64,000 bases of DNA from Defluviicoccus sp. (GTDB lineage Bacteria; Pseudomonadota; Alphaproteobacteria; MPNO01). The stretch is from the NCBI GenBank assembly GCA_022823775.1, contig JAJEHI010000086.1:1309-65308 (forward strand). The letters are read 5' to 3'. The position numbers and the translations under genes were made by a program. Positions 9,748 to 63,750 of the stretch are shown here, one piece after another. The stretch's first letter is position 1. Each line of letters begins with the position of its first letter. The notes under the pieces were generated by a model that was given only the letters and a program-made list of their open reading frames with translations, did no database searches and was not told the origin of the DNA.

Positions 9748-9902
9748 TCAGTATGTGTAGAAATATTGCACATCTGTGGCGGGCCGATCAATCGACGTTC
9801 CCGTGGGCAGCCACGTTTACACGTCGCCGCCGTTCGGCGACAATTCCGCGCCCGCGCCGCAAGCGCCCGGGCAGTTGGCCAATCATCGAGGAGACAGTCA
9901 CG

Positions 9903-37525: not shown

Positions 37526-38746
37526 CTAAACGACCGGCTCGATCGGCCGGTGTCCGACGATCCTGATCCCGTACCCCTCGAGCCCGACCACCGTCCGGTT
37601 GTGGTTGGTCAACAGGATCATTTCGGTCACGCCCAGATCGCGGAGGATCTGCGCGCCCACGCCGTAATCGCGGAGCGCGGGCGGCGCGAACGCGGTCTCG
37701 GCGTCCGTGGTCACGCTGACCTCCATGGAGGCGGCGCCTGGATCGCCCGGAATGTCGTGGCGCTGACGCACCTGGTTCACGAAACTCTGGGCGAACGAAT
37801 CTCGGATCAGCACGACGACGCCCCTTCCCGCCTCGCCGATCGTTCGGATGCAGGATTCGATCACTCCGGCGCGACCCGCGGTCTCGTCCTGGATCACATC
37901 GTCCAGCACGTTGATCGCGTGCATCCTCACCGGCACCGGTTCCGACCCGGAAATGTCGCCCTTGATCAGCGCCAGATGCTCGGCTCCGGTGATCTTGTTG
38001 ACATAGACGATCAGACGGAATTCGCCGCCGTGCTTGCGCGTGAGCCGCGTCGCGAGGACGCGCTCGACAAGGCTGTCGTTGCGCAGACGGTACGCGATCA
38101 GGTCGGCGATCGTGGCGACCTTGAGCCCGTGGAACTGCGCGAACGGGATGAGATCGGGAAGACGGGCCATGGTGCCGTCGTCCTTCATGATCTCGCAGAT
38201 CACACCCGAGGGGTTGAGACCCGCCAGACGGGCGATATCGACCGAGGCCTCGGTGTGGCCGGCGCGCTCCAGCACTCCGCCGTCGCAAGCGACAAGCGGA
38301 AAGACATGGCCGGGGGTCACGATGTCTTCCTCGCCGGACGTGGGATCTATCGCGACCGCGATCGTCCGCGCCCGGTCGGGCGCCGAAATTCCCGTGGTCA
38401 CGCCCTCGCGCGCCTCGATGGACACGGTAAAGGCGGTCTGATGCCGCGTCCGGTTGTTCTGCGACATCAGCGGCAGACCGAGCCTCTCGATCCGTTCGCG
38501 CATCATCGCGAGGCAAATCAGGCCGCGCCCGTGGGTCGCCATGAAGTTGACCGCTTCCGGGGTCGCCATCTGGGCGGCAACCACCAGGTCGCCTTCGTTC
38601 TCGCGGTCCTCGTCGTCGACCAGAATCACGATGCGCCCGTTCCGGATATCCTCGATCACGTCCTCGATGGGCGAGAGGAAACCGGCCGTGTCGTCCAGCG
38701 CCTCCGCGACTTTCGACGGGGCCGCGCGTTTGAGGCTGTCGCTCAA
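37526..38746 (-). CDS. ribBA: 3,4-dihydroxy-2-butanone-4-phosphate synthase fused to a GTP-cyclohydrolase-II-like domain that lacks the zinc-binding cysteines (RibBX-type)
   Basis: The N-terminal DHBP synthase motifs are intact ([20 protein letters not shown]). The C-terminal RibA-like domain lacks the SEC...CDCG cysteine triad; the corresponding region is [11 protein letters not shown]...ESCIRT. Confidence 0.8.
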
Positions 38747-44736: not shown

Positions 44737-45384
44737 TCATCCTATCGGCTTACCGAGAGCGGAATAAAGCGCCGAATCCCGGACCTGTCCGCAATCGCGG
44801 ATCGCGTCCTTGAGCGATTCGTAGTCCTCGACCGCGGGGAAGTCCGGGAATTCGTCCCGTACCGCAGCCGGGGCGCGAAACAGGATGCCGGCATGCGCCG
44901 CCCGCAGCATGGCGATGTCGTTATAGGAATCGCCGGCCGCGGTAACGTGGAAGTTGAGCGTTCGGAAGGCTTCGACGCTCGCGCGCTTGTGGTCTGGGTG
45001 CCGCAAGCGGTAATCGCCGATGCGCCCGTCTTCCTCGACGACGAGCGAATGGCAGAGCAGCGTCGGCAGATCGAGTTGCGCCATCAGCGGGCCGGCAAAC
45101 TCGCGATAGGTGTCCGACAGGATGATCACCGGCCCCTGCTCGCGGAGCCAGCGGAGGAATTCGCGCGCCCCGGGTAGCGGTGCCATCGTCGCGACCACCG
45201 CCTCGACATCCCTCAGCCCGAGCCGATGCTCTTCGAGCAGCCCCAGGCGCTGACGCATCAGCGCGTTGTAGTCGGGAACGTCGCGCGTGGTCGCCCTGAG
45301 CGCTTCGATGCCCGTGCGTTCGGCGAGCCCGATCCAGATTTCGGGGATCAGCACGCCTTCGAGATCGAGACAGAAAATCCGCAC
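44737..45384 (-). CDS. HAD-family phosphoserine phosphatase/homoserine phosphotransferase ThrH-like
   Basis: MRIFCLDLEGVLIPEIWIGLAERTGIEALRATTRDVPDYNALM... closely parallels ThrH (the DLEGVL nucleophile motif and GDSYND motif). Confidence 0.7.
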   Translation of the reverse strand: MRIFCLDLEGVLIPEIWIGLAERTGIEALRATTRDVPDYNALMRQRLGLLEEHRLGLRDVEAVVATMAPLPGAREFLRWLREQGPVIILSDTYREFAGPLMAQLDLPTLLCHSLVVEEDGRIGDYRLRHPDHKRASVEAFRTLNFHVTAAGDSYNDIAMLRAAHAGILFRAPAAVRDEFPDFPAVEDYESLKDAIRDCGQVRDSALYSALGKPIG

Positions 45385-47153: not shown

Positions 47154-48089
47154 CTATTCCGCAGCCCGATGGGCTGCCGACTGCATATCGAAATCGACCA
47201 GCGATGCCGCGTCTGCGGTCTCGCGCAGCATGCCCCAGCTCCGGATCCACGCGGCGGTCCGTTCGAGCTCATGGTCCGGGATCGGCGCCGGCTCGACGAC
47301 GACGATCCGGCTCGGGCGCAGGTCGTCGATGCCGAGCGCCGCGATTTCCGGGTCGTTTCGGGCGTGACGGTCGATGAAATAGCGCAGGTATTTCGTCTTG
47401 TCGGCGTCGATCCGGCGAACGGCCTCGCAGACGGCGCGGTTAAACCGTGCATAGGTCCCGGCGTCGACCCGGTCCGAAGCGACCTCGGTGCCGTGATAGA
47501 ACGCGGCCGTGAGGATCCGGCAACCCTTCTTTTCCGCGAGCGAGATATAGGGCTCGGTCAGGGTGGTCGCCTCGATCTCGCCCGACATCATCGAATCGAG
47601 GCGGAAGCGAGAGCCCATCGGGGCGCTGCACACCCGGATGCGGTCGCGCGGCAGGAAACCCTCCAGCATGTGGAGGGCGAGATAGTGGGTGCCGAAATAG
47701 AACGGCACGCCGACCAGCCGGTCGGCGAGCTGTTGCGCGGTGAACACGTCGGAATCGGGGCGCACCGCGATCGCCGCGTAGGTGACGATCGAACGACGGC
47801 CGACCTGGCGTCCGCCCTCGATGCCAGAATCCTGCACCCGGCAGTAATTCCCCCACTCGCAGGCGTTGTACATGTCCGCCCTGCCCTCTTCGAAGAGCTT
47901 GCCGTGGCTGGAGTGGGGATCGAGCCCTTCCGGACCGAGAATGTCGACGCGGGTCCGCCGGTCGACACCGGCTTCGCGGTCGACCCATTCGATTTCGAGG
48001 CCCTCTTTCTCGAACAGCCCCTCATCGTCGGCGACCAGTTCGCAGAGCCCTTGGAACGGGGCCGTATTCTCGAGCACCAGCGTCTGCAT
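47154..48089 (-). CDS. NMT1/THI5-like (NitT/TauT-type) ABC substrate-binding domain protein
   Basis: About 310 aa with a periplasmic-binding-protein type-2 fold. Start chosen at the third Met (MQTLV...), which follows GGGAGAG. There is no obvious signal peptide, so the function is uncertain. Confidence 0.5.
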   Translation of the reverse strand: MQTLVLENTAPFQGLCELVADDEGLFEKEGLEIEWVDREAGVDRRTRVDILGPEGLDPHSSHGKLFEEGRADMYNACEWGNYCRVQDSGIEGGRQVGRRSIVTYAAIAVRPDSDVFTAQQLADRLVGVPFYFGTHYLALHMLEGFLPRDRIRVCSAPMGSRFRLDSMMSGEIEATTLTEPYISLAEKKGCRILTAAFYHGTEVASDRVDAGTYARFNRAVCEAVRRIDADKTKYLRYFIDRHARNDPEIAALGIDDLRPSRIVVVEPAPIPDHELERTAAWIRSWGMLRETADAASLVDFDMQSAAHRAAE

Positions 48090-48219
48090 CGGCATCTCTC
48101 CCAAGCACCCTATCCTAGAGCAATCGGCCCGCGCGAGCGACAGCCCGCGGCGGGTTGCAATCGGTCCCCGAGGGGTTCAGTTTTCCACGGCGCGACGGGC
48201 CGCGGCGGTTTCGCGAAAC

Positions 48220-48680: not shown

Positions 48681-50027
48681 TTAGCGACGCCGGTCGATGA
48701 AACGCGGGGCTTTCACGCTGGCCTCGAACTCGCGGGCCAGCAGGCCGGGTTCGAGGATGACGATGTCGGGCGAGAGCTCGAAGGTCTCCTTGGTGCGCCT
48801 CTCCAGGTCCTCGCGCAGCGTGTCGGGGTCGGCGCCGCGGCGCGGCTCGACGGAAACCCGGAGGCGTTCGAGACCCGACGCGTCGCCGATCAGTTCGAGC
48901 TTGAAGTCGTTCACCGAGCGGTGCCCGAACATCATGTCCTCGAATTCCTGGTGGTTGACGTTGACACCGCGCAGCTTGAAGAAGCCCGCCGTGCGGTGGG
49001 CGTGGCGCATCGTGGGGAAGACCGAGAACGCCCCGTCGTCGCCCCCGGCGGGGTTCATGATCACGATGTCGCCCGAATCCCAGCGCAGGAACGGCGCCCC
49101 GTTGTTGCCGAACAGGGAGGTGCAAACCAGATGGCCGGGCTCGCCGTCCGGCACCGGCTTGCCGGTATCGGGGTCGAGCACCTCGAATATGGCGAGGTCG
49201 GCCCAGATCCTGAACCCCTGGCGGGACGGTCCCTCCGCGGCCAGCATGCTGATCTCGGTCATCCCGAAACAGTCGAAGACCCGGGCTCCCCAGTCGCGTT
49301 CGAGCTTTTCCCGCTTGGCCGCCGAAAGCGCCTCGGCGGAGCACAGCATGGTGGAGACCGAGCCTTCAGCAAGGTCCACGCCCTCCGAGTTGGCCAGGTT
49401 GGCGAGGTGCAGGCCGTAGCTCGACATGCCCAGCCAGACGGTGGGCTTGAGCGAGGAAATCAGGGCGAGCTGCTGGACCGACGGCAGCGACGCGCCGGAG
49501 CCCGCCCATACCGCGCCCATCCCCACGATCTGCGCCGCGCGCGCCCACATGTGGCCGACCGGATGGACCCCGAGCGGCGTCGAGATATGCGCCCTGTGGT
49601 TCGCCCCGTCTTCGATCCCCGCGGCCGCGAAGGTGCGGGTGAAACCGACCATGTTGAAGAGGATGTCCTCGAAAGTCTTCGGGTAGAACAACGGCTTTCC
49701 GGTGCTCCCGCCCGAGCGCCAGTACTCGCAGATCTCCTGACCGTCGAGCGTGCAGAAATCCTCGTAAAACCGCTCGTCCGACATCGCCCGAAGCTCGTCC
49801 TTGGTCAGGATCGGGATCTTCGACCACTCCTCGGGGTCGTCGAGCTTGCCGACGTCGATCCCCTCGAGGCGCGGGCGCCAGAACGGCGATCTGCGGGCGC
49901 GCTCGACGGCGATGCGCTTGCGTCTGCTCTGGATGCCTTCGATCTCTTCCGGGTTCTCCGGAATGCAGAGCGGCAAACCCGCGTAGATGTCCGGACGGCC
50001 CCGGGCCAGGCTCTCCAGCGCGCTCAT
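48681..50027 (-). CDS. Phenylacetate-CoA ligase family (PaaK/coenzyme F390 synthetase-like) adenylate-forming enzyme
   Basis: 448 aa. The AMP-binding core is present (YWRSGGSTGKPLFYP, GMTE) and the PaaK-like C-terminal domain. Confidence 0.8.
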   Translation of the reverse strand: MSALESLARGRPDIYAGLPLCIPENPEEIEGIQSRRKRIAVERARRSPFWRPRLEGIDVGKLDDPEEWSKIPILTKDELRAMSDERFYEDFCTLDGQEICEYWRSGGSTGKPLFYPKTFEDILFNMVGFTRTFAAAGIEDGANHRAHISTPLGVHPVGHMWARAAQIVGMGAVWAGSGASLPSVQQLALISSLKPTVWLGMSSYGLHLANLANSEGVDLAEGSVSTMLCSAEALSAAKREKLERDWGARVFDCFGMTEISMLAAEGPSRQGFRIWADLAIFEVLDPDTGKPVPDGEPGHLVCTSLFGNNGAPFLRWDSGDIVIMNPAGGDDGAFSVFPTMRHAHRTAGFFKLRGVNVNHQEFEDMMFGHRSVNDFKLELIGDASGLERLRVSVEPRRGADPDTLREDLERRTKETFELSPDIVILEPGLLAREFEASVKAPRFIDRRR

Positions 50028-51034
50028 TCCCCTGAATCGCTCCCGAGATAGCCGAGCGCGCCGATCCAGCGCTCCTGGGCGGCATAAGAGTCGGGGAGCG
50101 CCTCCTTCGCCTCCGCGTCGGCCATTGCGGCGAGGCGCCCGGCCTTTTCCGGGGTCGCCTCCGGTATCTCATCGAGGCTGTCCCCGATCATCCGCGCGTA
50201 GTCGTTGCCCACCGGACACACGTCCTGGCAGCGGCGGCAACCGCTGATCACCCCGGCACCGCGCAAAATGCTCTGCCACAGGTTGAAGCTGGTCTCGGAA
50301 CGGATCATGTCGAGCCTGGCGGCATCGTCCGGCGCTTCCAGGATGTCGCCAAGGTGATCCGCGAGCTGCGAGAAACCGTGCGGCGACCGGTAGCTGTCGC
50401 AGGCGGGCCAGTCGCGGTCCCAGTGTCCCACCACGTCTCCCGGGCAGGCGGTCAAGCAGCGGCCGCATTCCGGGCCGAGGCAAAGCGCCTCCTCCCGCCG
50501 GCCATCGGTTTCGCAATCGACCGAACACATCACCGCGGTGATCAGGACCCGGGGGCCGAACTCGGGGGTGATAAGCTGCAGATTCAGGCCCAGCGTGCCG
50601 AGCCCGGCCTCGACCGCCGCATGGGTGAGCGACAGCACCGTGGTCATGTGCTGGTTGCGGTCGCCGCGATAGAGCCACGGATCGGCATGGGTCGGCGGGA
50701 CGATGATCGTGGGATAGCCGTTGTCCTCCAGCCAGAAGACGAGCTCGAGCGAGGTTTCCTCCAGCATCGTGAGGACGAGCTCGTCGTTGTAATATTTGTG
50801 CCGCTCGTCCCAGCGCGCGATCCGGGTGGTGCCGGCGGAGTAGCGTTTGGCGAGGACGATCACGCGGCCGCCGTCATGCTCGGTGATGTCCTTCGGGCGG
50901 CGCGGGTCGCGCGGATCGGGCGGGTGCGCGTCCATCACCGCGCCGTCGGCGATACCGACGAGGTCGGCGCCGAGCGCCCTCGCCTTCGCCTTTATCGTGT
51001 CCGCGTCGAGCGGAGTCTGGAAGACGCCGACCAT
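50024..51034 (-). CDS. QueG/RdhA-superfamily 4Fe-4S protein (epoxyqueuosine-reductase-like paralogue 1)
   Basis: N-terminal KARALGADLVGIAD, GLGTLGLN...PEFGPRV, and two Cys clusters (CLGPECGRCLTACPGD and CRRCQDVCPVGND). These parallel the QueG A(E/G)LGxxG...CxxCxxCxxxCP and CxxCQxVCP motifs. Confidence 0.6.
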   Translation of the reverse strand: MVGVFQTPLDADTIKAKARALGADLVGIADGAVMDAHPPDPRDPRRPKDITEHDGGRVIVLAKRYSAGTTRIARWDERHKYYNDELVLTMLEETSLELVFWLEDNGYPTIIVPPTHADPWLYRGDRNQHMTTVLSLTHAAVEAGLGTLGLNLQLITPEFGPRVLITAVMCSVDCETDGRREEALCLGPECGRCLTACPGDVVGHWDRDWPACDSYRSPHGFSQLADHLGDILEAPDDAARLDMIRSETSFNLWQSILRGAGVISGCRRCQDVCPVGNDYARMIGDSLDEIPEATPEKAGRLAAMADAEAKEALPDSYAAQERWIGALGYLGSDSGE

Positions 51035-52051
51035 CTAGCGCTCGGACGCGTTCGTCTCGCGCTCGCGCTGCAGCGCCTTGAAGGCCTGGAGCTGGCGCGC
51101 GACAATGCCCTTGTAACCCTCCGGCCCCACCCAGCGCACGTTCCAGTCGTTCAGCCCGTCGACCTCGGCGCCTGACTTTCGGGCCTCCTTGAACGCGGCG
51201 GCCTTGTCCACCTTTTCCGGCGTCTTTTCGGGGATGACCTTCTGAAGCGGCGCGAGGAAAGCGTGGTAATCGTTGCCCACCGGGCAGACCGCGAGGCAAC
51301 GGGGGCAGTCCCCGAACGACCCCACGACCCTGAGCAATCCCTGCCAGAACCCGTAGATTTCCCGGTCGGCGATCAGGCGCCGCCTGGTTTCCCCGTCGGA
51401 AACCAGGAAATGCTCCCAGAATTTCAGAATGGTGGTGAACCCGAACTCCTGCGCTTCGGTGGCACAGGCGCGCTTGTCGATGCCGAAATGGCGGACCGCG
51501 TCGGAGGGGCAGGAATAGAGACAGCGGCTGCAGCTCTCGCCGATGCAGACCTGCTCGGTCATCGGCTTGTCGGCCTCGAGCTCGCATTCGGTGAGCACGC
51601 CGGTCAGGTAGACCCTCGGTCCGAACTCGGGCGTCAGGATGTTGACCTCCAGCCCGAACGTGCCGAGCCCCGCCTCGATCCCGAGATGGCGCGTCGACAG
51701 CCGCCCGTAACTCGCCCGCTTGTAGCTCCAGTCGGTCTCCTGCGCCGCGGTGACGAAGCTCGGATGGCCCTCCCGTTCGAGGGCATCGACGAGACGGTAG
51801 GCGATCCTGTCCATCCGCCTCAGCACCAGCATGTCGATGTACTGGACCGGCACGTTCGTTTTGCACCGGAATGCGCCGACCGGAATGCGCTGGGCGATCG
51901 CCACGACGCTCTTCACATGCGGCGAAATCCGCTCGGGCGTCTGCGGGAACAGCGGGTCGGGCGGAAACGCGTTGAGGACGGAGGCGTCCGCGATCCCCAC
52001 CAGGTCCGCGCCGAGATCCTTCGCCAGGGCCTTTACTTCGGTTGCGTCCAT
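51035..52051 (-). CDS. QueG/RdhA-superfamily 4Fe-4S protein (paralogue 2)
   Basis: Internal Met MDATEVKALAKDLGADLVGIADAS..., with a GGGGAG RBS. Same motif set (GLGTFGLEVNILTPEFGPRV, CIGESCSRCLYSCPSD, CPRCLAVCPVGNDY). Clear paralogue of the preceding gene. Confidence 0.6.
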   Translation of the reverse strand: MDATEVKALAKDLGADLVGIADASVLNAFPPDPLFPQTPERISPHVKSVVAIAQRIPVGAFRCKTNVPVQYIDMLVLRRMDRIAYRLVDALEREGHPSFVTAAQETDWSYKRASYGRLSTRHLGIEAGLGTFGLEVNILTPEFGPRVYLTGVLTECELEADKPMTEQVCIGESCSRCLYSCPSDAVRHFGIDKRACATEAQEFGFTTILKFWEHFLVSDGETRRRLIADREIYGFWQGLLRVVGSFGDCPRCLAVCPVGNDYHAFLAPLQKVIPEKTPEKVDKAAAFKEARKSGAEVDGLNDWNVRWVGPEGYKGIVARQLQAFKALQRERETNASER

Positions 52052-52161
52052 CGACTCCCCGCAGGACCGTGAACGGGCGCCAAACTGGCATAGGGGAGAG
52101 TTGCGGGCAAGGCGGGGCGGCGCGCGTTGCCCGGACGCCGGGCGGCGCGTATTTAGGTGCC

Positions 52162-53298
52162 ATGAGTTCCCCGCCAACCCGACCCGTGCCAGGATTCGAG
52201 ACAGGCGATATAGCCGCGGTGGACCGCGCGGCCGGCGATCTTCGCCGCGGTCTGCCGGTGATTCTTGCCGAACCCGGGGACACCGACGGCATCGTCGCGT
52301 TCGCGGCCGAATTCATCTCGGCATCGCGGCTCGACGCGCTGCGCCGGCTGGCGGGGCGGGAACCGGACCTGACGATTACCCATAACCGGGCCGCCACCCT
52401 GAAAATCCGTCTCTACACGCCGGACGTGATCAGGATTCCGGTGCCGGAGTGGCTCTCGATCGAGGGGTTGGCAAGCCTCGCGGATCCGGCGACCGACCTC
52501 GCCCAGCCCCTGCGCGGCCCGTTCGAGGCGCGGCGCGATCCGGTGCCGGCCGGCGTCGTCGCGGCGGTGCGGCTCGCCAAGATCGCGCGACTCCTGCCGG
52601 CGACGGTGACCGCGGAGGTAAGCGACCTCGCCGCCGCGCTCGGAACCGAAAAGGCGGACCTGCTCGGGGTCGGACCGTCCGCGGTCATGTCATACGATGT
52701 CGCCGCCTCGCACCGGCTGGAGCAGGTCACCGCGGCGAAAGTGCCGCTCGAGGGCGCCGAGGGAGCGCGCATTTTCGCCTTCCGCCCGCGGGACGGCGGG
52801 ACCGAGCACTTCGCCATCGCGATCAACGACCCTCCCCCGCCCGGCCCGGTGCTGGCCCGGCTCCATTCGGAGTGCTTCACCGGCGATCTGCTCGGGTCGC
52901 TCAAATGCGATTGCGGGCAACAGCTGCGCGGCGCCATCGAACAAATCTCGTCCGAAGGCGCCGGCATTCTCCTCTACCTCGCCCAGGAAGGCCGCGGCAT
53001 CGGGCTGATCAACAAGCTCCGGGCCTACGCCCTGCAGGACCTCGGCTTCGATACGGTGGAGGCGAACGAACGGCTGGGATTCGACGCGGACGAGCGGGTG
53101 TTCCTGCCCGCCGCCGAGATGCTGCGCCGGCTGGGCTATTCGTCGGTACGGCTGATGACCAACAACCCCGACAAGGTCGAGGCGCTCGCCCGCTTCGGAA
53201 TCGAGGTCGCCGAACGGGTGCCGCACAGCTTCCCTTCCAACGACCACAACGCCTTCTACCTGTCGACGAAGGCGGAGAAGAGCGGGCATCTGTTGTAG
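52162..53298 (+). CDS. ribA: GTP cyclohydrolase II with N-terminal extension
   Basis: C-terminal RibA domain with an intact zinc/catalytic region (ARLHSECFTGDLLGSLKCDCGQQL, RAYALQDLGFDTVEANERLG). Confidence 0.85.
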   Translation: MSSPPTRPVPGFETGDIAAVDRAAGDLRRGLPVILAEPGDTDGIVAFAAEFISASRLDALRRLAGREPDLTITHNRAATLKIRLYTPDVIRIPVPEWLSIEGLASLADPATDLAQPLRGPFEARRDPVPAGVVAAVRLAKIARLLPATVTAEVSDLAAALGTEKADLLGVGPSAVMSYDVAASHRLEQVTAAKVPLEGAEGARIFAFRPRDGGTEHFAIAINDPPPPGPVLARLHSECFTGDLLGSLKCDCGQQLRGAIEQISSEGAGILLYLAQEGRGIGLINKLRAYALQDLGFDTVEANERLGFDADERVFLPAAEMLRRLGYSSVRLMTNNPDKVEALARFGIEVAERVPHSFPSNDHNAFYLSTKAEKSGHLL

Positions 53299-53462: not shown

Positions 53463-53741
53463 ATGATACGAAAGTTCCGGAGTCGGGCACTGCGTCGGTT
53501 CATGGAGCGAGGCGACGAGCGGCGCGTCCACCCGGAGCACCGCGACACCGTGCGCGACATCCTGGTGCGTCTCAACGCGTGTGCGAACCCGGACGATATG
53601 GACTTGCCCGGCTTTCGGCTGCACCGCCTCAGGGGCGAGTATGCCGGATTTTGGGCGGTGACGGTCGGCGCCAACTGGCGGGTGATCTTCCGATTCGAGG
53701 ACGGCCACGCCACCGATGTCGACTATGTGGGCTACCACTAG
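53463..53741 (+). CDS. higB: HigB-type (RelE/ParE superfamily) toxin
   Basis: 92-aa product. [39 protein letters not shown]... matches the 'plasmid maintenance system killer' family. Immediately followed by higA. Confidence 0.75.
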
Positions 53742-53754
53742 GAAGGCAACGTTC

Positions 53755-54042
53755 ATGCTTATGCACGATCCGCCCCACCCCGGCGCCTTCATTCGGCGTC
53801 AATGCCTCCAACCCCTCGGGCTGACGGTCACCGACGCCGCGAAGGGGCTGGCGGTTTCGCGCAACACGCTCTCTCTGTTACTCAACGGCCACATTGGCAT
53901 ATCGCCCGAAATGGCGATCCGGCTCTCCGAAGCATTCGGCGGCAGCCCGGAAAGCTGGCTGACCCAGCAGATGCAGTACGATCTCTGGCACACGCGGCAC
54001 AACCGCGAGGCAGTCGAAATCCGCAAGTTCGCCGCTGCCTGA
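53755..54042 (+). CDS. higA: HigA-type HTH (XRE-family) antitoxin
   Basis: [78 protein letters not shown], the canonical HigA sequence. AGGAAGG RBS 8 nt upstream. Confidence 0.8.
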
Positions 54043-57674: not shown

Positions 57675-59009
57675 TCAGCGCATCGGAGCCGCCGCCTCCT
57701 TGAGCGCCGCCAGCTCCTCTTCGGCCCGCCCGGTGTCGTCGAGCCCGGCCTTGCGGTCGATCGGAACGGCCTCCTTGTCATCCGCCGTCGGCAGCTTCCC
57801 GACCGGGTAGACCGCGACCCGTTCGTTGGCGCCCGAGACGTCGCGCCCGAGCGACAGGTCACGCTCGTTGGCGGCGGACGCCGCGACGATCCTGCCGTCC
57901 TCCTTCACGAGGTCGAGCCACCAGCGCTTGACCGGGTTGCGCTTGCCGTAGCCGAGCGCATCGTCGAGCCAGATCAGGAAACGGCGCGAGAACGGCAGCT
58001 TGATCGCCGCCCACATCGCGAGCCGGTGCGCCAGCAGCCCCTCCTTGTTCCACGGGCACATCTTCATGCAGCGCCCGCACGCCGAGCCCTTGAGGTTGGT
58101 CACCCGGTACTTGGTGCACTTCTCGACGTCGGGCTTCCAGATCTCGTAGCCGTTGTAGAGCAGCTTGTCGCCGAACGGGATGGCCTGGGCCGGGCACTCG
58201 CGCGCGCATTTGCGGCATTTGTCGCAGAAATCCTGGAGCCCGAAATCGATCGGCTTGTCGGGAACCAGCGGCAGGTCGGTGGTCACGACGGCGGTCTTGT
58301 GGCGCGGCCCGATGAAGGGGTTGAGGACGAGCTCGCCGATCCGGCTCATCTCGCCCAGCCCGGCAAGCAGCATCAGCGGAATCTGCATCACGTCGCCGTG
58401 GGCGTTGGAGTGCGCCTGGGCCGGGTAGCCGAGGCGGCGGATGTAATCGGCGACGATAGTGGCCGTGGTGGAGCCGTTGAGATATGCGCGATAGCTCTGC
58501 GCGCCGGACACCCAATCGTCGCCGGACGAGGCTTCGAACGTGTCCCAGCCCTGGTCGATCACGATGACGACCGCGAATTTGTGCCGGGTATCGATCGGCG
58601 TACCGTCGCTCTCGTGGGAGAACCATGCGTACTCGGGCACCTCGCACACCCCCACCATGTCGGCGTCGAGGAAATAGCAGAGCGATTTGACGTGTCTGGT
58701 CAGCTCTTCGGGGTCGTCAGGCAGCGGCGCCTTCTCGTCCGCCGGATCGCCCTTGTGGACGGGCACGTGCTTCCAGTGCAGGTGCCCGATCGCCGCGTTG
58801 AGCGGGTTCTTGGTGATGAAGCGCCGGATTTCCCTGGCGGGCTTGGGACCGAGATCGCCGTAGAAGGCACGGACGAAGAAGCCGGCGCGCTTGGGCACCT
58901 GCTTCACGTCGTCGGTGATCAGCGTCGTCGGACGATCGACGCGCCTGATCTTCTCCATCGGATAGCGGCCGAGATGCATCGGCCGCTTCTTGCGTGAAAG
59001 TATCCGCAC
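57675..59009 (-). CDS. Cytoplasmic reductive-dehalogenase-like (RdhA/QueG superfamily) cobalamin/4Fe-4S protein
   Basis: About 440 aa. No Tat signal. Two ferredoxin-type clusters (FCDKCRKCARECPAQAI and CGRCMKMCPWNKEG) preceded by AGLGEMSRIGELVLNPFIGPRHK, the RdhA/QueG core pattern. No rdhB anchor gene nearby. Confidence 0.55.
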   Translation of the reverse strand: MRILSRKKRPMHLGRYPMEKIRRVDRPTTLITDDVKQVPKRAGFFVRAFYGDLGPKPAREIRRFITKNPLNAAIGHLHWKHVPVHKGDPADEKAPLPDDPEELTRHVKSLCYFLDADMVGVCEVPEYAWFSHESDGTPIDTRHKFAVVIVIDQGWDTFEASSGDDWVSGAQSYRAYLNGSTTATIVADYIRRLGYPAQAHSNAHGDVMQIPLMLLAGLGEMSRIGELVLNPFIGPRHKTAVVTTDLPLVPDKPIDFGLQDFCDKCRKCARECPAQAIPFGDKLLYNGYEIWKPDVEKCTKYRVTNLKGSACGRCMKMCPWNKEGLLAHRLAMWAAIKLPFSRRFLIWLDDALGYGKRNPVKRWWLDLVKEDGRIVAASAANERDLSLGRDVSGANERVAVYPVGKLPTADDKEAVPIDRKAGLDDTGRAEEELAALKEAAAPMR

Positions 59010-59093
59010 GCCCGTATCCCCGCGCTGGACGATCCCGCCGACGCCCGGCCGGCGCGAGGACCGGCCGGCCGGGCGCGAACGAAGCGGACCCGG

Positions 59094-60158
59094 CTACTGG
59101 ATGCCGTAGAGCGCCTTGGTGTTGTGATAGAGGATCTTTTCCTTGACCTCCATCGAGTATTCGTTGTCGGCGAGGAAGTCCGGCACGTCCGCCGTCAAAT
59201 CCTCTTCCGTCGGTTCGTGCGGGAAGTCGGACGCGTAGATGATCCGGTCCGACCCCATCGCGTCGATGACGTATTTGAGGCTCTTCTCGCCCATCTCGCA
59301 GGACAGCCAGATGCTCTCCGTGTCGCGGATGATCTCCGAGGGCTTCTTCTTCAACTTCGGGCGGACGGGCGCGCCGAACACCGAATCGTATTCGTAGTCG
59401 AGCCGGTCCATCATGAAGGTGATCCAGGCGCAGCCGCCTTCCAGGAACGCGAACTTGAGATTGGGGAAGGTCTCGAAGACGCCGTTGAACATCATGTCGG
59501 TCATCTGGATCATCAGCGGGACCGGGTGTTCGAGGGTATGGACCTTGAGGAACGGCTTCAGGTTGTCGAGCCCGAAACCCCGGCTTACCGCGCCGTGGAA
59601 GGCGATGGTCATGCCCTGGCGCTCGGCCTCCTCGTAGATCGGCCAATAGCACTCGTCCCCGAAATACTTGCCGTTGACGGTCACCGTCGGGAGCAGCATC
59701 GCACCGAAATTGGTCCGCTCGGTGGCGCAGCGGGCCACTTCCTTCTTCGCGGCCTCGACGTCGTTGTAGGGGATCAGCCCGACGCCCCAGAGCCGGCCGT
59801 CCTTCTTGGTGTAGTGCTCTTCCAGCCAGTTGTTGTAGGCGATCGCGGTGGCGGTCTGGAACTCCTCGCTCTGCATCAGCCCGTAGGCCAGCCCGGACGT
59901 CGGGTAGAGAACGCTGCCCTCGAGCCCGATCTTGTCGAGGATCTCGGCCCAGATATCGGCGTCGGTCGACCAGTACCGCGCGCCTTCGTCGCCCTCCGCG
60001 ACGATCGAGCTCCGCGACCAGCCGTCGAGGCTCGGAAAGATGGTCATGCCTTCGAGGCGGCGGTTGCCCGTCCACTTGCCTTCATAGTGCTGCGCGAGCT
60101 CGCGGTCCGGCTCGAGGACGTGGCCGTCGCCATCGAAGACGGGAATGTCATGTTGCAT
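59094..60158 (-). CDS. Amidohydrolase-2 (ACMSD/LigW-type) metal-dependent decarboxylase family protein
   Basis: N-terminal FDGDGHVLEP (HxH-type metal ligands in the D/HxH context), an internal AFHG, and a C-terminal DFPHE motif typical of PF04909. Confidence 0.75.
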   Translation of the reverse strand: MQHDIPVFDGDGHVLEPDRELAQHYEGKWTGNRRLEGMTIFPSLDGWSRSSIVAEGDEGARYWSTDADIWAEILDKIGLEGSVLYPTSGLAYGLMQSEEFQTATAIAYNNWLEEHYTKKDGRLWGVGLIPYNDVEAAKKEVARCATERTNFGAMLLPTVTVNGKYFGDECYWPIYEEAERQGMTIAFHGAVSRGFGLDNLKPFLKVHTLEHPVPLMIQMTDMMFNGVFETFPNLKFAFLEGGCAWITFMMDRLDYEYDSVFGAPVRPKLKKKPSEIIRDTESIWLSCEMGEKSLKYVIDAMGSDRIIYASDFPHEPTEEDLTADVPDFLADNEYSMEVKEKILYHNTKALYGIQ

Positions 60159-60351
60159 GGCCTGACGCTCCGTTCGGGTTTGGGTGCGTCAAGAGTGAAG
60201 CGGAACGCACGGCGGCTCAAGCCCCGATCGTCCGGGCGAGCAAGAGCGCGCCCCGGATGCCGGGTCGTTGGGGTCTGGACGGTCGACACCTCATGTCCTA
60301 TCTGTTGGGCGGCCCGTTCGGCCGACCTCCTCGCACTTCAAGGGGCCGGAA

Positions 60352-61596: not shown

Positions 61597-61708
61597 GAAT
61601 TGTTGTGATGGTGGGTATCACTTAGGGTCATGTCGTGGCTATGCCCGAAGTTACGGGGCGCCATGTCGTTTTTCCATACACCTGTCCCATCGACAAGGAG
61701 ACGAACCG

Positions 61709-62008
61709 ATGACCAAGAGCCCAGTGTTTCTCGCGGCCGCGCTTCTGGCCGCCGCCAATTTCGCCGCCTCCGACGCGGCTCAAGCGGCCGACAAGCAGGA
61801 GAAGTGCTACGGCGTCTCGCTCGCCGGCAAGAACGACTGCAAGGCGGGTCCGGGAACGAGTTGCCAGGGCAGCTCGACCGTGGACTACCAGGGGAATGCC
61901 TGGAAGCTGGTCCCCGCCGGATCGTGCGAGGGTATGTCCTTCAAGACCAAGGACGGCCGGACGGTGTCAGGCAGCCTGAAGGAGCTGAAGCGCGACATTC
62001 CGAGCTGA
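61709..62008 (+). CDS. bufA: DUF2282-family secreted Cys-containing peptide (bufferin-type RiPP precursor, BufA-like)
   Basis: 99-aa product with a Sec signal peptide ([26 protein letters not shown]). The core has four Cys in the conserved spacing ([46 protein letters not shown]). AAGGAG RBS. Confidence 0.75.
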
Positions 62009-62063
62009 TCGGATAACGTCCGGGACGCCGTCCGGGCCTTCGACCCGGCGGCGACCGGACGAT

Positions 62064-62957
62064 TTGTCGACGAATCCGGCAATGCCGGCACTTTATCCTT
62101 TCACGCCGTTTACCTCGCGGATGCCCGCGCGGGCCGGCGTCGGGTTCAAGGGCGAGCATGCGGAGACGGTCTGCGGGGACCGACCGGACGTCGGCTGGTT
62201 CGAGGTCCATCCGGAAAACTACATGGTTGCCGGCGGGCCGAGGCTCGCGGTGCTCGAGGAGCTGCGCGGCAATTACCCGCTGTCGCTGCACGGCGTAGGC
62301 CTGTCGCTCGGCGGTGCCGAACGACTCGACTCCGACCATTTGAGAGCCTTCCGCGAGCTGGCGGACCGCTTCGAGCCGGGGCTGATTTCCGAACACATCG
62401 CCTGGTCCGCGCATGGCGGGATGTGGTTCGCGGACCTGCTCCCTCCGAGCCTTAGCCGGGCCGGCCTCGACCGCATTTGCGACAATATCGACGAGACGCA
62501 GGAAGCGCTCGGCCGTGCGATCCTGATCGAGAACCCGGCCAACTACCTCGTCTTGCCGGACCGCGACATGGACGAGGTCGCTTTCATCGTCGAAACGGCG
62601 AGGCGGACCGGTTGCGGCCTGCTGGTCGACGTCAACAACATCTACGTCAGTGCCGAAAATGTCGGCATCGACGCGGACGCCTATATCGATGCCGTCCCTG
62701 CCGACCTCATCGGGGAAATCCATCTTGCCGGCTTCACGGTCGACGAGCACGCCGGCGAGCGTCTGCTGATCGACAGCCACGGCGCGGCGGTCGACGCCGC
62801 GGTCTGGCGGCTCTACGACAGGCTGATCGCGCGAGTCGGGCCGCGCCCGACACTGGTCGAGTGGGACAAGGACATTCCCGACTGGGACGTGCTGCATGCC
62901 GAAGCGGTCGAGGCGGAGAGCCGCCTGGCCCGCCTTGCCGAGCCGGTGCCGGCATGA
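62064..62957 (+). CDS. bufB: DUF692-family multinuclear non-heme iron oxidase (MNIO, BufB-like) RiPP maturase
   Basis: 297-aa TIM-barrel-type DUF692 product (VGFKGEH...HPENYM...HGVGLSLGG...ISEHIAWS...LIEN). Immediately downstream of the DUF2282 precursor. Confidence 0.8.
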   Translation: MSTNPAMPALYPFTPFTSRMPARAGVGFKGEHAETVCGDRPDVGWFEVHPENYMVAGGPRLAVLEELRGNYPLSLHGVGLSLGGAERLDSDHLRAFRELADRFEPGLISEHIAWSAHGGMWFADLLPPSLSRAGLDRICDNIDETQEALGRAILIENPANYLVLPDRDMDEVAFIVETARRTGCGLLVDVNNIYVSAENVGIDADAYIDAVPADLIGEIHLAGFTVDEHAGERLLIDSHGAAVDAAVWRLYDRLIARVGPRPTLVEWDKDIPDWDVLHAEAVEAESRLARLAEPVPA

Positions 62958-62970
62958 GGAGGCGCCTGGG

Positions 62971-63750
62971 ATGAGCGCGCCTCTGGCTGCCCGGCAGGCG
63001 GATTTCGCCGCGGCCCTGAGAGACCCCTCGCCGGATGCGGTGCCGGACGGTTTCTCCGAAGCCGCCGCCCGGCGTTTCCGCGTATACCGCAACAATGTGC
63101 GCGTCGCGCTGATAGAGGCGCTTGCAGCCGCCTACCCGGCGGTGTCGAGGCTGGTCGGAGAGCCCTTCTTCCACCGCATGGCCGGCGTCTACGCGGCGGA
63201 GGAACCCTCGCGCGAGCGCACGCTCAATCTCTACGGCGAAAACTTCGCGGATTTCGTCGCCGGCTTCGCTCCGGCTGGCGAGTTGCCCTATCTCGCCGAC
63301 ATCGCCCGGCTCGAACGCGCGGTGCTCGAAGCGCGCCATGCGGCCGATGCCCCGGTGCTGGACCCGGCCGCGGCGGCCGCTCTCGGTTCCAGGCTCGCTT
63401 CCGCGTGGCTGATACCGCACCCGGCGACCCGGCTGGTGCGCTCCGAATATCCGGTTGCCGAGATCTGGCACGCCAACACGGCCGAGGCGCCGACGCCGGA
63501 CGACCTGGTCCTGACCGCGGGAGCTGCCGGCGCGCTGGTGTCGCGGCCCGCGCTGTCCGTTTCGGTGCAAGCTCTGGCGCCGGGCCGATGCGCATTCGCG
63601 GAAACCCTGCTGGACGGCGGCGATCCGGCCGCCGCGCATGCGGCCGCGGCCTCGCGTGAAGAAGATTTCGACGTTATACCGGCATTCAGGGACCTGCTTG
63701 CCGCGGGCGCCTTCGCGGGCGTCGCGAACGAACCGGGCGAAGGAGGGTAG
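62971..63750 (+). CDS. bufC: DUF2063-family MNIO partner protein (BufC-like)
   Basis: Start at MSAPLAARQADFAAALRD, which has a GAGGAGG RBS. DUF2063 N-terminal domain pattern (FRVYRNNVRVALIEALAAAYP). Overlaps the bufB stop region. Confidence 0.7.
   Translation: MSAPLAARQADFAAALRDPSPDAVPDGFSEAAARRFRVYRNNVRVALIEALAAAYPAVSRLVGEPFFHRMAGVYAAEEPSRERTLNLYGENFADFVAGFAPAGELPYLADIARLERAVLEARHAADAPVLDPAAAAALGSRLASAWLIPHPATRLVRSEYPVAEIWHANTAEAPTPDDLVLTAGAAGALVSRPALSVSVQALAPGRCAFAETLLDGGDPAAAHAAAASREEDFDVIPAFRDLLAAGAFAGVANEPGEGG

What the first reader, a model, noticed from the sequence alone, without database searches (positions are those of the whole stretch)
57675..60158. Cytoplasmic reductive-dehalogenase-like protein adjacent to an ACMSD-type aromatic decarboxylase
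Gene 57675-59009 encodes a protein of about 440 aa with the RdhA/QueG core and two 4Fe-4S motifs (FCDKCRKCARECPAQAI and CGRCMKMCPWNK). It has neither a Tat signal nor an rdhB anchor, which matches the catabolic (oxygen-tolerant, cytoplasmic) reductive dehalogenase subgroup rather than respiratory RdhAs.
Its downstream neighbour on the same strand (59094-60158) is an amidohydrolase-2 (ACMSD/LigW/gamma-resorcylate-decarboxylase family) enzyme, which typically acts on hydroxybenzoates.
A dehalogenase plus hydroxyaromatic-decarboxylase pair would make sense for catabolism of halogenated hydroxybenzoates or phenols.
With the two QueG-like genes at 50-52 kb, the window holds three members of this cobalamin/Fe-S superfamily.
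Basis: partly seen in the sequence, partly recalled or inferred. Interest (0 to 1): 0.65.

Follow-up and report, generated by a model that had tools for sequence, protein, structure and literature searches.

The report
Short cytoplasmic NpRdhA-like reductive dehalogenase
This gene encodes a cytoplasmic vitamin-B12/iron-sulfur dehalogenase closely related to the known enzyme NpRdhA but without its extra N-terminal domain. Its neighbour looks like a two-metal oxygenase rather than a decarboxylase, and the two genes are not a conserved pair, so this is an ordinary new member of a known enzyme group.

Summary
Both ORFs and both quoted Fe-S motifs are real. Both genes lie on the minus strand, so the amidohydrolase-2 gene (59094-60158) is upstream of the RdhA gene (57675-59009), not downstream.

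The 444-aa protein passes NCBI's RDH model. It aligns end to end with residues 251-689 of NpRdhA (E 4e-165), against PceA at 9e-36 and QueG at 0.019. It keeps all eight cluster cysteines and the NpRdhA Ser/Tyr/Lys/Arg set. It has no Tat signal, no membrane helix and no nearby rdhB. It also lacks the vestigial N-terminal duplicate that defines published "catabolic" RdhAs. It belongs to a large clade of about 440-aa single-core proteins, already auto-annotated as "reductive dehalogenase".

The neighbour is PF04909, but its nearest solved relatives are amidohydrolase-related dinuclear oxygenases (AROs), ahead of LigW and ACMSD. It carries the ARO ligands D-x-H, His, Glu and D-x-P-H; the last acidic residue is shifted by one position. 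The decarboxylase reading is therefore not supported.

The pairing occurs only in close, fully syntenic relatives. Orthologues of either gene elsewhere have other neighbours. One relative keeps the amidohydrolase beside a decayed RdhA, and a conserved hairpin separates the two genes.

Verdict: new member of a known kind, modest interest.

The parts
57675..59009 (-). Single-core cytoplasmic reductive dehalogenase (RdhA), 444 aa, NpRdhA clade. It has no vestigial N-terminal domain, no reductase domain and no Tat signal.
   Evidence: TIGR02486 RDH scores 201.5 bits against a cutoff of 160.35. Query residues 6-435 align to 4RAS residues 251-689 at E 4e-165. Homologues are 64-94% identical and 430-450 aa long. 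Tat and TM checks are negative.
58191..58226 (-). First [4Fe-4S] motif, CDKCRKCARECP (C262, C265, C268, C272).
   Evidence: Translation verified. The cysteines are invariant in all 83 catalytic cores compared.
58053..58118 (-). Second [4Fe-4S] motif: C298 plus CGRCMKMCP (C311, C314, C318). R302, the equivalent of NpRdhA R552, lies within this stretch.
58296..58496 (-). Active-site residues. S172, Y176 and K238 correspond to NpRdhA S422, Y426 and K488. Pocket residues G169 and Y173 correspond to NpRdhA A419 and M423.
   Evidence: Residues mapped from the HMMER alignment to 4RAS. Their roles are taken from PMC7565698. They are invariant in the clade.
59039..59074 (-). Conserved GC-rich hairpin (11-bp stem) about 20 nt after the amidohydrolase stop codon, in the 84-bp spacer. 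It is likely a terminator-like or mRNA-end structure.
   Evidence: The spacer folds at -50.8 kcal/mol. A consensus stem is found in 12 genomes, and 4 pairs show changes on both sides. Spacer length varies from 78 to 181 bp.
59094..60158 (-). PF04909 protein of 354 aa, ARO-like (amidohydrolase-related dinuclear oxygenase). It is not ACMSD-type.
   Evidence: PF04909 matches at 1e-28. Best PDB sequence hits are 8SM9 at 1.2e-32, then 8SM8, PtmU3 and AibH2; LigW scores 1.1e-18. With the family profile, 8SM9 scores 4.6e-45 and LigW 5e-28. The AF2 model has pLDDT 87.6, and the 21 best Foldseek PDB hits are all ARO entries (20 catalytic ARO chains and one AibH1 partner chain).
60120..60128 (-). N-terminal D11-G-H13, the ARO D-x-H motif (site-1 metal ligands).
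   Evidence: It aligns to the D-x-H of AibH2 and 8SM7. It is invariant in the family. The motif definition is in PMC13154177.
59211..59228 (-). C-terminal D311-F-P-H314-E315-P316, a variant of the ARO D-x-P-H-x-[D/E] motif.
   Evidence: It is invariant in 24 family members. The published motif is given.
60159..60267 (.). Divergent intergenic region between the amidohydrolase gene and a DacA-type D-Ala-D-Ala carboxypeptidase gene. It is the presumed promoter region.
   Evidence: Sequence read. No sigma-70-like consensus was found and no Rfam element. This role is inferred only.

Best explanation
Gene 57675-59009 encodes a soluble, cytoplasmic, corrinoid- and two-[4Fe-4S]-dependent reductive dehalogenase of the NpRdhA lineage. 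It consists only of the catalytic core.

By analogy with NpRdhA, electrons from an unidentified ferredoxin-type donor pass through the two clusters to cobalamin. Cobalamin then removes a halogen (Br, Cl or I) ortho to a phenolic hydroxyl. S172, K238 and R302 hold the phenolate and Y176 donates the proton. Altered pocket residues (I65, G169, Y173) imply a halophenol that differs from NpRdhA's 3,5-dibromo-4-hydroxybenzoate.

In NpRdhA the vestigial domain mimics the second subunit of the PceA dimer. The short protein lacks that domain, so it is inferred to be a homodimer.

The upstream PF04909 gene most likely encodes an ARO-type dinuclear Fe/Mn oxygenase-like enzyme, not a decarboxylase. The two genes are most likely neighbours by lineage-specific synteny rather than an obligate two-step pathway.

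Shown here: homology, motifs, conserved residues, absence of Tat, RdhB and extra domains, and neighbourhood statistics. Inferred: substrate class, oxygen tolerance, dimeric state, electron donor, and oxygenase chemistry.
For: RdhA identity:
- The RDH model scores above its cutoff; QueG scores far below its own.
- NpRdhA residues 251-689 align over the full length at about 60% identity, E 4e-165. PceA scores 9e-36 and QueG 0.019.
- Eight Cys plus S172, Y176, K238, R302, N202, F44, F45 and F64 are conserved. Their roles are documented for NpRdhA.

Cytoplasmic, single-core form:
- No Tat motif, no TM helix and no rdhB candidate.
- No extra Pfam domain.
- Vestigial domains of the long forms hit nothing in the window except this gene's own first 254 residues.

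Clade:
- 77 of the 120 best homologues are about 430-450 aa; the long forms are only 53-60% identical.
- In an NJ tree the window clade has 81% bootstrap support.

The dimer inference rests on the statement in PMC10463259.

Neighbour is ARO-like:
- ARO structures rank above decarboxylases by sequence, by family profile and by fold.
- D11-x-H13, H188, E240 and D311-x-P-H314 align to ARO ligands and are invariant in the family.
- Two 55%-identical homologues carry a C-terminal double CDGSH [2Fe-2S] domain.

Loose pairing:
- The pair occurs only in L001-L011 and L062, where 17 kb of synteny is conserved.
- Short RdhAs at 67-82% identity have other neighbours.
- Amidohydrolase orthologues at 79, 75 and 66% identity have other neighbours.
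- L062 keeps the amidohydrolase intact next to an RdhA pseudogene.
- A conserved hairpin follows the amidohydrolase stop codon.
Against: - No activity, cofactor or expression data exist for any member of this short clade.
- No cobalamin synthesis or uptake genes, ferredoxin or reductase were found in the 64 kb window, so the electron and cofactor supply is unknown.
- The split between short and long forms has only moderate bootstrap support: 66% for short, 43% for long.
- The PF04909 protein fails the strict published ARO motif at its last position (P316, with the acid at 315). It has no adjacent Rieske ferredoxin.
- LigW is not far behind the AROs in score: 5e-28 against 9e-30 for SfbO.
- Homologues of the PF04909 gene sit near LigB, UbiD and aryl-acid ligase genes, which would also suit a non-redox aromatic-acid enzyme.
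- The two genes share a strand, are 84 bp apart and have no recognisable internal promoter, so co-transcription is not excluded.
Confidence: 0.72

Rival explanations
1. First reader's model. The two genes form a catabolic module in which a cytoplasmic RdhA dehalogenates a halogenated hydroxybenzoate and an ACMSD/LigW-type decarboxylase removes its carboxyl group, or the reverse order.
For: - The genes share a strand and are 84 bp apart.
- PF04909 includes hydroxybenzoate decarboxylases. LigW scores 1e-18 with the single sequence and 5e-28 with the profile.
- NpRdhA's best substrate is a halogenated 4-hydroxybenzoate.
- Some homologues of the PF04909 gene sit next to LigB or UbiD aromatic-acid genes.
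Against: - The ligand set is ARO-type (D-x-H, Glu240, D-x-P-H). It is not the H-x-H or E-x-H found in decarboxylases.
- All better structural and sequence matches are oxygenases.
- The pairing is absent outside one syntenic lineage.
- The amidohydrolase survives loss of the RdhA in L062.
- A conserved hairpin lies between the genes.
Confidence: 0.1
2. Functional oxygenase-dehalogenase couple. The ARO-like enzyme hydroxylates or dealkylates a brominated aromatic metabolite, for example by O-demethylating a bromo-anisole-type compound to expose the ortho-halophenol that an NpRdhA-type site requires. Alternatively it hydroxylates the side chain. The RdhA then debrominates the product. Both enzymes draw on a shared ferredoxin.
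For: - The adjacency and shared strand are conserved in 12 related genomes.
- AROs catalyse C-H hydroxylation and hydroxylation-initiated dealkylation.
- The RdhA retains the phenolate-binding S/K/R triad, so it needs a free ortho-hydroxyl.
- Both enzyme types need an external low-potential electron donor.
Against: - There is no independent co-occurrence. The 12 genomes share the whole 17-kb synteny.
- Orthologues of each gene elsewhere have other partners.
- The RdhA has decayed while the amidohydrolase is intact in L062.
- A hairpin follows the first gene.
- No ferredoxin, transporter or regulator is present in the unit.
- No ARO is known to act on aryl methyl ethers.
Confidence: 0.13
3. The RdhA-like protein is not a dehalogenase. 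It performs another class-III cobalamin reduction, for example of an epoxide or another leaving group on a non-halogenated substrate, as QueG does.
For: - No member of this short clade has been assayed.
- The gene sits among housekeeping and CoA-metabolism genes, not in a halo-aromatic cluster.
- The window holds two other QueG/RdhA-like proteins of unknown function.
Against: - About 60% identity to NpRdhA, with every catalytic and phenolate-binding residue kept.
- The QueG model scores only 27.5 bits.
- All characterised relatives in this branch are ortho-halophenol dehalogenases.
Confidence: 0.05

Closest known systems
[quoted passage not shown]
   Same: - About 60% identity over the whole catalytic half, E 4e-165.
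- Same two Fe-S motifs.
- Same S422/Y426/K488/R552 set, plus F290, F291, F310 and N452.
- No Tat, no RdhB and no fused reductase.
   Different: - Lacks NpRdhA's roughly 250-aa vestigial N-terminal duplicate of the cobalamin core.
- Pocket changes P311I, A419G and M423Y.
- No neighbouring ferredoxin or ferredoxin-reductase genes, unlike the NpRdhA cluster described in PMC10463259.
BhbA / JtRdhA self-sufficient catabolic RdhAs
   Same: Cytoplasmic enzymes in the ortho-halophenol-type branch.
   Different: [quoted passage not shown] The window protein has neither.
'Simplified cytosolic' RdhA-like proteins (Han et al. 2025, PMC12219181) and short cytosolic debrominases such as Ros_A3X954 (PMC13101508)
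   Same: Same architecture: a single core, no Tat and no vestigial domain.
   Different: - The described examples come from Desulfobacterota and Chloroflexota (about 395 aa) or Roseobacter.
- They have different Fe-S motif sequences (CDICTKCADACP and CAICMRVCP).
- The window protein belongs to a separate, NpRdhA-proximal, mostly alphaproteobacterial clade of about 440 aa.
- I could not compare sequences directly.
PceA-type respiratory RdhA (4UQU, 8Q4H)
   Same: Same fold family and similar overall length, with a single core domain. PceA is a homodimer, which is the state inferred here.
   Different: Homology is only local (E 9e-36 over residues 187-364). PceA has a Tat signal and an RdhB anchor; the window protein has neither.
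Amidohydrolase-related dinuclear oxygenases (AROs): TruffO proteins 8SM7-9, SfbO 8SM6, AibH2 6M1W/8FUL, PtmU3 6OMP, DitZ 8UYR
   Same: - Best sequence, profile and fold matches for the 59094-60158 protein.
- D-x-D-x-H on strand 1, the mid His, the bridging Glu and D-x-P-H all align.
   Different: - The last motif position is Pro, with Glu one residue earlier (D-F-P-H-E-P). The published filter D-x-P-H-x-[D/E] would miss this family.
- No adjacent Rieske ferredoxin.
- Some relatives instead carry fused CDGSH domains.
ACMSD / LigW / gamma-resorcylate decarboxylases (PF04909)
   Same: Same TIM-barrel family (PF04909). Scores are significant but weaker: LigW 1e-18 and ACMSD 4e-11. TM-score is about 0.72-0.76.
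   Different: - The N-terminal ligands are D-x-H. The paper states that characterised decarboxylases and hydrolases use other N-terminal motifs.
- The strand-8 motif carries the extra His of AROs.
- Strand 6 has Glu where, from my own knowledge of ACMSD, a catalytic His sits.

Membership tests
Reductive dehalogenase RdhA (TIGR02486 / class-III cobalamin enzymes) | Family HMM above the curated cutoff | tested here: met
   201.5 bits against a cutoff of 160.35.
Reductive dehalogenase RdhA (TIGR02486 / class-III cobalamin enzymes) | Two [4Fe-4S] binding motifs C-terminal to the corrinoid core | tested here: met
   C262/265/268/272 and C298/311/314/318. All are invariant in 83 relatives.
Reductive dehalogenase RdhA (TIGR02486 / class-III cobalamin enzymes) | Bound corrinoid and halide-releasing activity | not testable with these tools
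   Supported by homology only: about 60% identity to the cobalamin-binding half of 4RAS.
Catabolic RdhA as defined by Fisher et al. 2023 (NpRdhA/BhbA/JtRdhA) | No Tat signal and no RdhB anchor; cytoplasmic | tested here: met
   No RR motif, maximum hydropathy 1.19, and no small TM ORF within about 2.5 kb.
Catabolic RdhA as defined by Fisher et al. 2023 (NpRdhA/BhbA/JtRdhA) | [quoted passage not shown] | tested here: not met
   The protein starts at the equivalent of NpRdhA residue 246-251. No separate gene for such a domain exists in the window.
Catabolic RdhA as defined by Fisher et al. 2023 (NpRdhA/BhbA/JtRdhA) | Ortho-halophenol active site (Ser-Tyr-Lys-Arg) | tested here: met
   S172, Y176, K238 and R302 align to S422, Y426, K488 and R552.
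Catabolic RdhA as defined by Fisher et al. 2023 (NpRdhA/BhbA/JtRdhA) | C-terminal PDOR-type reductase domain (self-sufficient subgroup only) | tested here: not met
   Only Fer4 Pfam domains were found. The 444-aa protein ends where NpRdhA ends.
Respiratory RdhA (PceA type) | [quoted passage not shown] | tested here: not met
Epoxyqueuosine reductase QueG (TIGR00276) | Equivalog HMM above cutoff | tested here: not met
   27.5 bits against a cutoff of 200. PDB QueG scores E 0.019.
ACMSD/LigW-type decarboxylase (for gene 59094-60158) | Mononuclear site built from H-x-H or E-x-H on strand 1, with no His after the strand-8 Asp | tested here: not met
   The protein has D11-x-H13 and D311-x-P-H314, both invariant in the family. 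The paper states that decarboxylases and hydrolases of this fold use other motifs.
Amidohydrolase-related dinuclear oxygenase (ARO) (for gene 59094-60158) | N-terminal D-x-H on strand 1, plus the further site-1 ligands (His, Glu) | tested here: met
   D11, H13, H188 and E240 align to the ARO ligand columns in 8SM7, 8SM9, AibH2 and PtmU3. All are invariant in the family.
Amidohydrolase-related dinuclear oxygenase (ARO) (for gene 59094-60158) | C-terminal D-x-P-H-x-[D/E] | tested here: not met
   The sequence is D-F-P-H-E-P. Asp, Pro and His are present, but the last position is Pro and the acid sits one residue earlier. This is invariant in 24 homologues. The protein is therefore 'ARO-like'; strict membership is not established.
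Amidohydrolase-related dinuclear oxygenase (ARO) (for gene 59094-60158) | Dedicated electron-transfer partner (Rieske ferredoxin nearby) | tested here: not met
   None in the window. As indirect support for a redox role, two homologues carry fused CDGSH [2Fe-2S] domains.
Amidohydrolase-related dinuclear oxygenase (ARO) (for gene 59094-60158) | Dinuclear Fe/Mn cofactor and O2-dependent activity | not testable with these tools
   Only fold and sequence ranking are available.

The most novel reading that the evidence does not exclude
The roughly 440-aa NpRdhA-proximal proteins are the free-standing, homodimeric ancestral form of the catabolic RdhAs. On this reading, tandem gene pairs and then the fused pseudo-dimer derive from that form. 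In this lineage (its nearest genomes are MAGs, some with names that suggest a sponge origin, which I did not verify) the enzyme would work with a previously unrecognised ARO subfamily (D-x-P-H-E-P, sometimes fused to CDGSH). Together they would form an aerobic route in which an O2-dependent dinuclear oxygenase unmasks or modifies a brominated aromatic natural product, and the B12 enzyme then debrominates it.
Probability: 0.1. Interest if true: 0.6.

Novelty: new member of a known kind. Interest (0 to 1): 0.35.

Why it matters
Cytoplasmic, probably oxygen-tolerant RdhAs are wanted as tractable models and bioremediation catalysts. Every characterised NpRdhA-type enzyme so far carries the vestigial extra domain.

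A large, uncharacterised clade of single-core proteins exists at 57-60% identity to NpRdhA with an intact active site and a distinct pocket (I65, G169, Y173). It offers smaller expression targets. It also offers a natural test of what the vestigial domain is for, namely whether it substitutes for dimerisation.

The neighbour illustrates a practical annotation point. PF04909 genes beside aromatic-catabolism genes should not be read as decarboxylases by default. This subfamily has ARO-type ligands but would escape the published ARO motif filter.

None of this changes the basic picture. Public pipelines already call these genes 'reductive dehalogenase' and 'amidohydrolase family protein'.

Tried and rejected
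- **Cobalamin supply and electron donor.** I looked for cobalamin biosynthesis or uptake genes, ferredoxins and reductases by Pfam/NCBIfam scans of about 50 ORFs across the window. None were found.
- **Riboswitches.** An Rfam scan of the whole window found only two tRNAs and no cobalamin riboswitch.
- **Promoters and terminators.** The sigma-70 promoter scan of 56.9-60.5 kb found nothing. The terminator scan found only two intragenic plus-strand matches, at chance level.
- **QueG-like protein model.** An AlphaFold model of the QueG-like protein at 50024-51034, intended to test the 'three superfamily members' claim by fold, was too poor (pLDDT 49.6). It was not searched.
- **Original NpRdhA paper.** Payne et al. 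2015 (PMC4968649) is not held. I relied on later open-access papers from the same group.
- **HAD-family gene.** I considered that 44737-45384 might be a haloacid dehalogenase. It is ThrH phosphoserine phosphatase.
- **Separate vestigial-domain gene.** I considered that the vestigial domain might be encoded separately. tblastn with six long-form N-terminal domains hit only the RdhA gene itself.
- **Degenerate tandem copy.** I considered that one copy in the tandem RdhA pairs might be a degenerate pseudo-subunit. Both copies keep all Cys and catalytic residues.
- **Deep tree order.** I did not pursue the branching order of short against long forms further, because support was only 43-66% with one distant outgroup.


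Full report
**Observation**

The window is high-GC (about 67%). Two long, high-GC3 ORFs occupy the stated coordinates: 57675-59009 (444 aa, GC3 0.90) and 59094-60158 (354 aa, GC3 0.91). Both lie on the minus strand. Both quoted Fe-S strings are present verbatim.

**The RdhA-like protein**

- It exceeds NCBI's curated cutoff for the reductive dehalogenase model TIGR02486 (201.5 bits against 160.35). It scores only 27.5 bits against the QueG equivalog, whose cutoff is 200. Pfam sees only ferredoxin-type domains.
- Against all PDB sequences the best match is NpRdhA (4RAS/6ZXU) at E 4e-165. Query residues 6-435 align to NpRdhA residues 251-689. PceA scores 9e-36 over a local stretch and QueG scores 0.019.
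- The residue roles come from the NpRdhA substrate-complex paper (PMC7565698). The phenolate-binding residues S422, K488 and R552 correspond to S172, K238 and R302. The proton donor Y426 corresponds to Y176. F290, F291, F310 and N452 are also conserved.
- Three pocket residues differ: P311 becomes I65, A419 (the pocket for the second bromine) becomes G169, and M423 becomes Y173.
- All of these residues and the eight cluster cysteines are invariant or nearly so in the protein's own clade.
- The N-terminus has no twin-arginine motif and the protein has no hydrophobic segment. No small membrane ORF that could be rdhB lies within about 2.5 kb.

**What differs from the named family**

Fisher et al. 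2023 (PMC10463259) divide RdhAs by architecture. They state that catabolic RdhAs are distinguished by a vestigial, non-cobalamin-binding duplicate of the core domain. That duplicate mimics the second subunit of the PceA dimer and makes NpRdhA a monomer.

The window protein starts exactly where that duplicate ends. No separate gene for such a domain exists in the window. Six long-form N-terminal domains hit only the first 254 residues of this same gene, at 30-37% identity. The protein also lacks a fused reductase. It is a single-core cytosolic RdhA.

That architecture has been noted before. Han et al. 2025 call it the 'simplified cytosolic type' (PMC12219181). Short cytosolic debrominases have also been expressed, for example Ros_A3X954 (PMC13101508). 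Those come from other lineages and have different motif sequences.

**The clade**

- The homologue search returned 4695 hits. Among the best 120, 77 are about 430-450 aa at 64-94% identity. The remaining 43 are long, NpRdhA-like, at 53-60% identity.
- A scan of representative genomes gave 79 loci. The closest (90-95% identity) are MAGs labelled Defluviicoccus sp. or Alphaproteobacteria bacterium. Several bin names suggest a sponge origin, but I did not verify this.
- In an NJ tree of catalytic cores, rooted with a distant paralogue, the window clade is supported at 81%.
- A further set of genomes carries tandem pairs of short RdhAs. Their upstream and downstream copies form two clades, each with 100% support.
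- The separation of all short forms from all long forms is only moderately supported, at 66% and 43%.
- Every group keeps the cysteines and catalytic residues. The groups differ at pocket positions.
- Long-form N-termini resemble the short-form N-terminus (MR(L/I)FSH..RPVHLG.YP.E). This fits an origin of the long form by duplication and fusion of a short-form-like gene.
- That the short form is a homodimer is my inference from the published role of the vestigial domain. It was not tested.

**The neighbour**

PF04909 matches at 1e-28, and no NCBIfam model matches.

The best PDB sequence matches are not decarboxylases:

| Structure | E-value |
|---|---|
| 8SM9 | 1.2e-32 |
| 8SM8 | 1.7e-31 |
| PtmU3 | 2.5e-24 |
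| AibH2 | 4.9e-24 |
| 8SM7 | 1.7e-20 |
| SfbO | 1.3e-19 |
| LigW | 1.1e-18 |
| ACMSD | about 4e-11 |

The entries from 8SM9 to SfbO are the 'amidohydrolase-related dinuclear oxygenases' (AROs) of Liu et al. (PMC10811679, PMC13154177).

- A family profile keeps the order: 8SM9 at 4.6e-45, SfbO at 9e-30, LigW at 5e-28.
- A confident AlphaFold model (pLDDT 87.6) finds only ARO entries in its first 21 Foldseek hits. These are the TruffO proteins, AibH1H2, SfbO and PtmU3; one of the 21 is the AibH1 partner chain. LigW is 22nd. TM-scores are close, 0.77 against 0.75.
- The ARO papers define the family by an N-terminal D-x-H and a C-terminal D-x-P-H-x-[D/E]. They state that characterised decarboxylases and hydrolases of this fold have neither.
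- The window protein has D11-G-H13, H188, E240 and D311-F-P-H314. Each aligns to the ligand column of solved AROs and each is invariant in 24 homologues.
- The last motif position is Pro316, with an invariant Glu315 one residue earlier. The strict motif therefore fails, and this subfamily would escape the published filter.
- Two homologues at 55% identity carry a C-terminal double CDGSH [2Fe-2S] domain. This fusion argues for a redox enzyme.
- I rate 'ARO-like oxygenase' clearly above 'decarboxylase'. Membership is not proven. Homologues near LigB, UbiD and aryl-acid ligase genes leave room for other chemistry.

**Is it a pair?**

- tblastn of the window's genes against the 79 RdhA loci shows the amidohydrolase next to the RdhA only in L001-L011 and L062. 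In those loci the whole 17-kb neighbourhood is syntenic: bufferin maturase, DacA, amidohydrolase, RdhA, RidA, EamA, CoA-transferase, crotonase, RibA, the two QueG-like genes and a PaaK-like ligase. This gives no independent support for coupling.
- Short RdhAs at 67-82% identity have other neighbours. A recurrent arrangement is a MarR gene and a crotonase gene ending 6 bp before the RdhA. Others sit in unrelated or housekeeping contexts.
- Amidohydrolase orthologues at 79, 75 and 66% identity are followed by an AMP-ligase, by a UbiD decarboxylase, or by nothing related.
- In L062 the amidohydrolase is intact (82% identity). The RdhA there has an upstream in-frame stop, a lost cluster cysteine and a truncated end.
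- The 84-bp spacer holds an 11-bp GC stem beginning about 20 nt after the amidohydrolase stop codon. The stem is conserved in 12 genomes, with changes on both sides at four pairs. The rest of the spacer varies from 78 to 181 bp.
- Co-transcription is not excluded, because no internal promoter was recognised. The evidence favours two loosely linked genes.

**What could not be settled**

No cobalamin, ferredoxin or reductase genes and no riboswitch are present in the window. Cofactor supply and the electron donor therefore remain unknown.

**Comparison, novelty and score**

In mechanism this is an NpRdhA-like ortho-halophenol dehalogenase. By architecture it is not a canonical 'catabolic RdhA'. 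It is a single-core cytosolic form, a kind already described. Public annotation already names its near-identical relatives 'reductive dehalogenase [Defluviicoccus sp.]' and 'amidohydrolase family protein'.

- the gene order;
- the missing vestigial domain;
- the oxygenase-like nature of the neighbour;
- the lack of evidence for a pathway.

I score interest at 0.35. The finding is useful as an expression target and as an annotation caution, but it would not surprise a specialist.

Noticed in passing
window 48681-52177 (minus strand): An operon-like trio. Two paralogous Fe-S proteins of about 336 aa (36-38% identical to each other) match QueG and RdhA only remotely: QueG model E 4e-12 and 4e-9, far below cutoff, and PDB QueG 2e-9. 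A PaaK-like aryl-CoA ligase follows them. The family is large and well conserved (2864 hits). The pair plus ligase recurs in distant genomes inside CoA-thioester clusters, for example MarR-ECH-ACAD-OYE-ligase-pair-ligase-ABC transporter in L090, and with a 4HBT thioesterase in L089. This may be an uncharacterised heterodimeric class-III-cobalamin-like enzyme acting on an acyl- or aryl-CoA. It is arguably more novel than the finding itself.
   Followed up: partly
L036, L037, L040, L041, L042, L045, L047, L048, L049, L052, L058 (about 8001-10620 in each): Tandem pairs of short NpRdhA-like genes. The upstream and downstream copies form two separate clades, each with 100% bootstrap support. Both copies keep all Cys and catalytic residues but differ at pocket positions (for example F64R, N202A, and Y173F or Y173Q). 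Many pairs have a PaaK-like ligase and a crotonase gene 5-8 kb downstream.
   Followed up: partly
L080 6670-9362; also L014, L017-L019, L022, L024-L026: In another branch of the short-RdhA clade (71-78% identity) the RdhA is preceded by a crotonase-family gene. In L080, the one locus whose gene calls I read, that gene ends 6 bp before the RdhA and a MarR regulator gene lies upstream of it; the MarR gene was not checked in the other loci. This recurrent unit is different from the window's arrangement.
   Followed up: partly
window 59039-59074: A GC hairpin with an 11-bp stem directly after the amidohydrolase stop codon. It is conserved in 12 related genomes, with changes on both sides at four pairs. 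It has no T-tract and is not repeated elsewhere in the window.
   Followed up: yes
L062 7866-8900: In a related MAG (OZ241868.1) the RdhA orthologue is a pseudogene. It has an in-frame stop before residue 106, the cluster Cys298 replaced by Arg, Trp166 replaced by Ser, and a truncated C-terminus. The adjacent amidohydrolase remains intact.
   Followed up: yes
P0239, P0240 (L087 6001-7464): Homologues of the PF04909 protein (55% identity) are fused to a C-terminal tandem CDGSH-type [2Fe-2S] domain. This fusion is not mentioned in the ARO papers I read.
   Followed up: partly
L060, L063, L057, L079, L069 (N-termini of long-form RdhAs): The vestigial N-terminal domains of long-form RdhAs begin with the same sequence as the short form (MR(L/I)FSH..RPVHLG.YP.E). 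They are 30-37% identical to residues 1-254 of the window protein. This is consistent with duplication and fusion of a short-form-like gene.
   Followed up: partly
window 62064-63750 (plus strand): An MNIO-family bufferin maturase (NF050167, 356 bits) is followed by a protein that matches the HvfC-family RiPP maturation model only below its cutoff (48.8 bits against 142). This looks like a copper-related RiPP cluster. An unassigned 128-aa ORF at 61630-62016 could be the precursor.
   Followed up: no
window 53463-54042 (plus strand): A HigA-family antitoxin (53716-54042) sits beside a small overlapping ORF (53463-53741) that is probably its toxin. The pair lies between RibA and the crotonase gene.
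   Followed up: no
window 52042-53298 and 37526-38746: Two GTP cyclohydrolase II genes. One is a stand-alone RibA-like gene transcribed divergently from the QueG-like pair. The other is a RibBA fusion inside a riboflavin cluster with RibD.
   Followed up: no
window 47154-48104 (minus strand): A 316-aa high-GC3 ORF with no Pfam or NCBIfam match. It lies between a choline-dehydrogenase-like GMC oxidoreductase gene and a tRNA gene next to the ligase/QueG-like operon.
   Followed up: no
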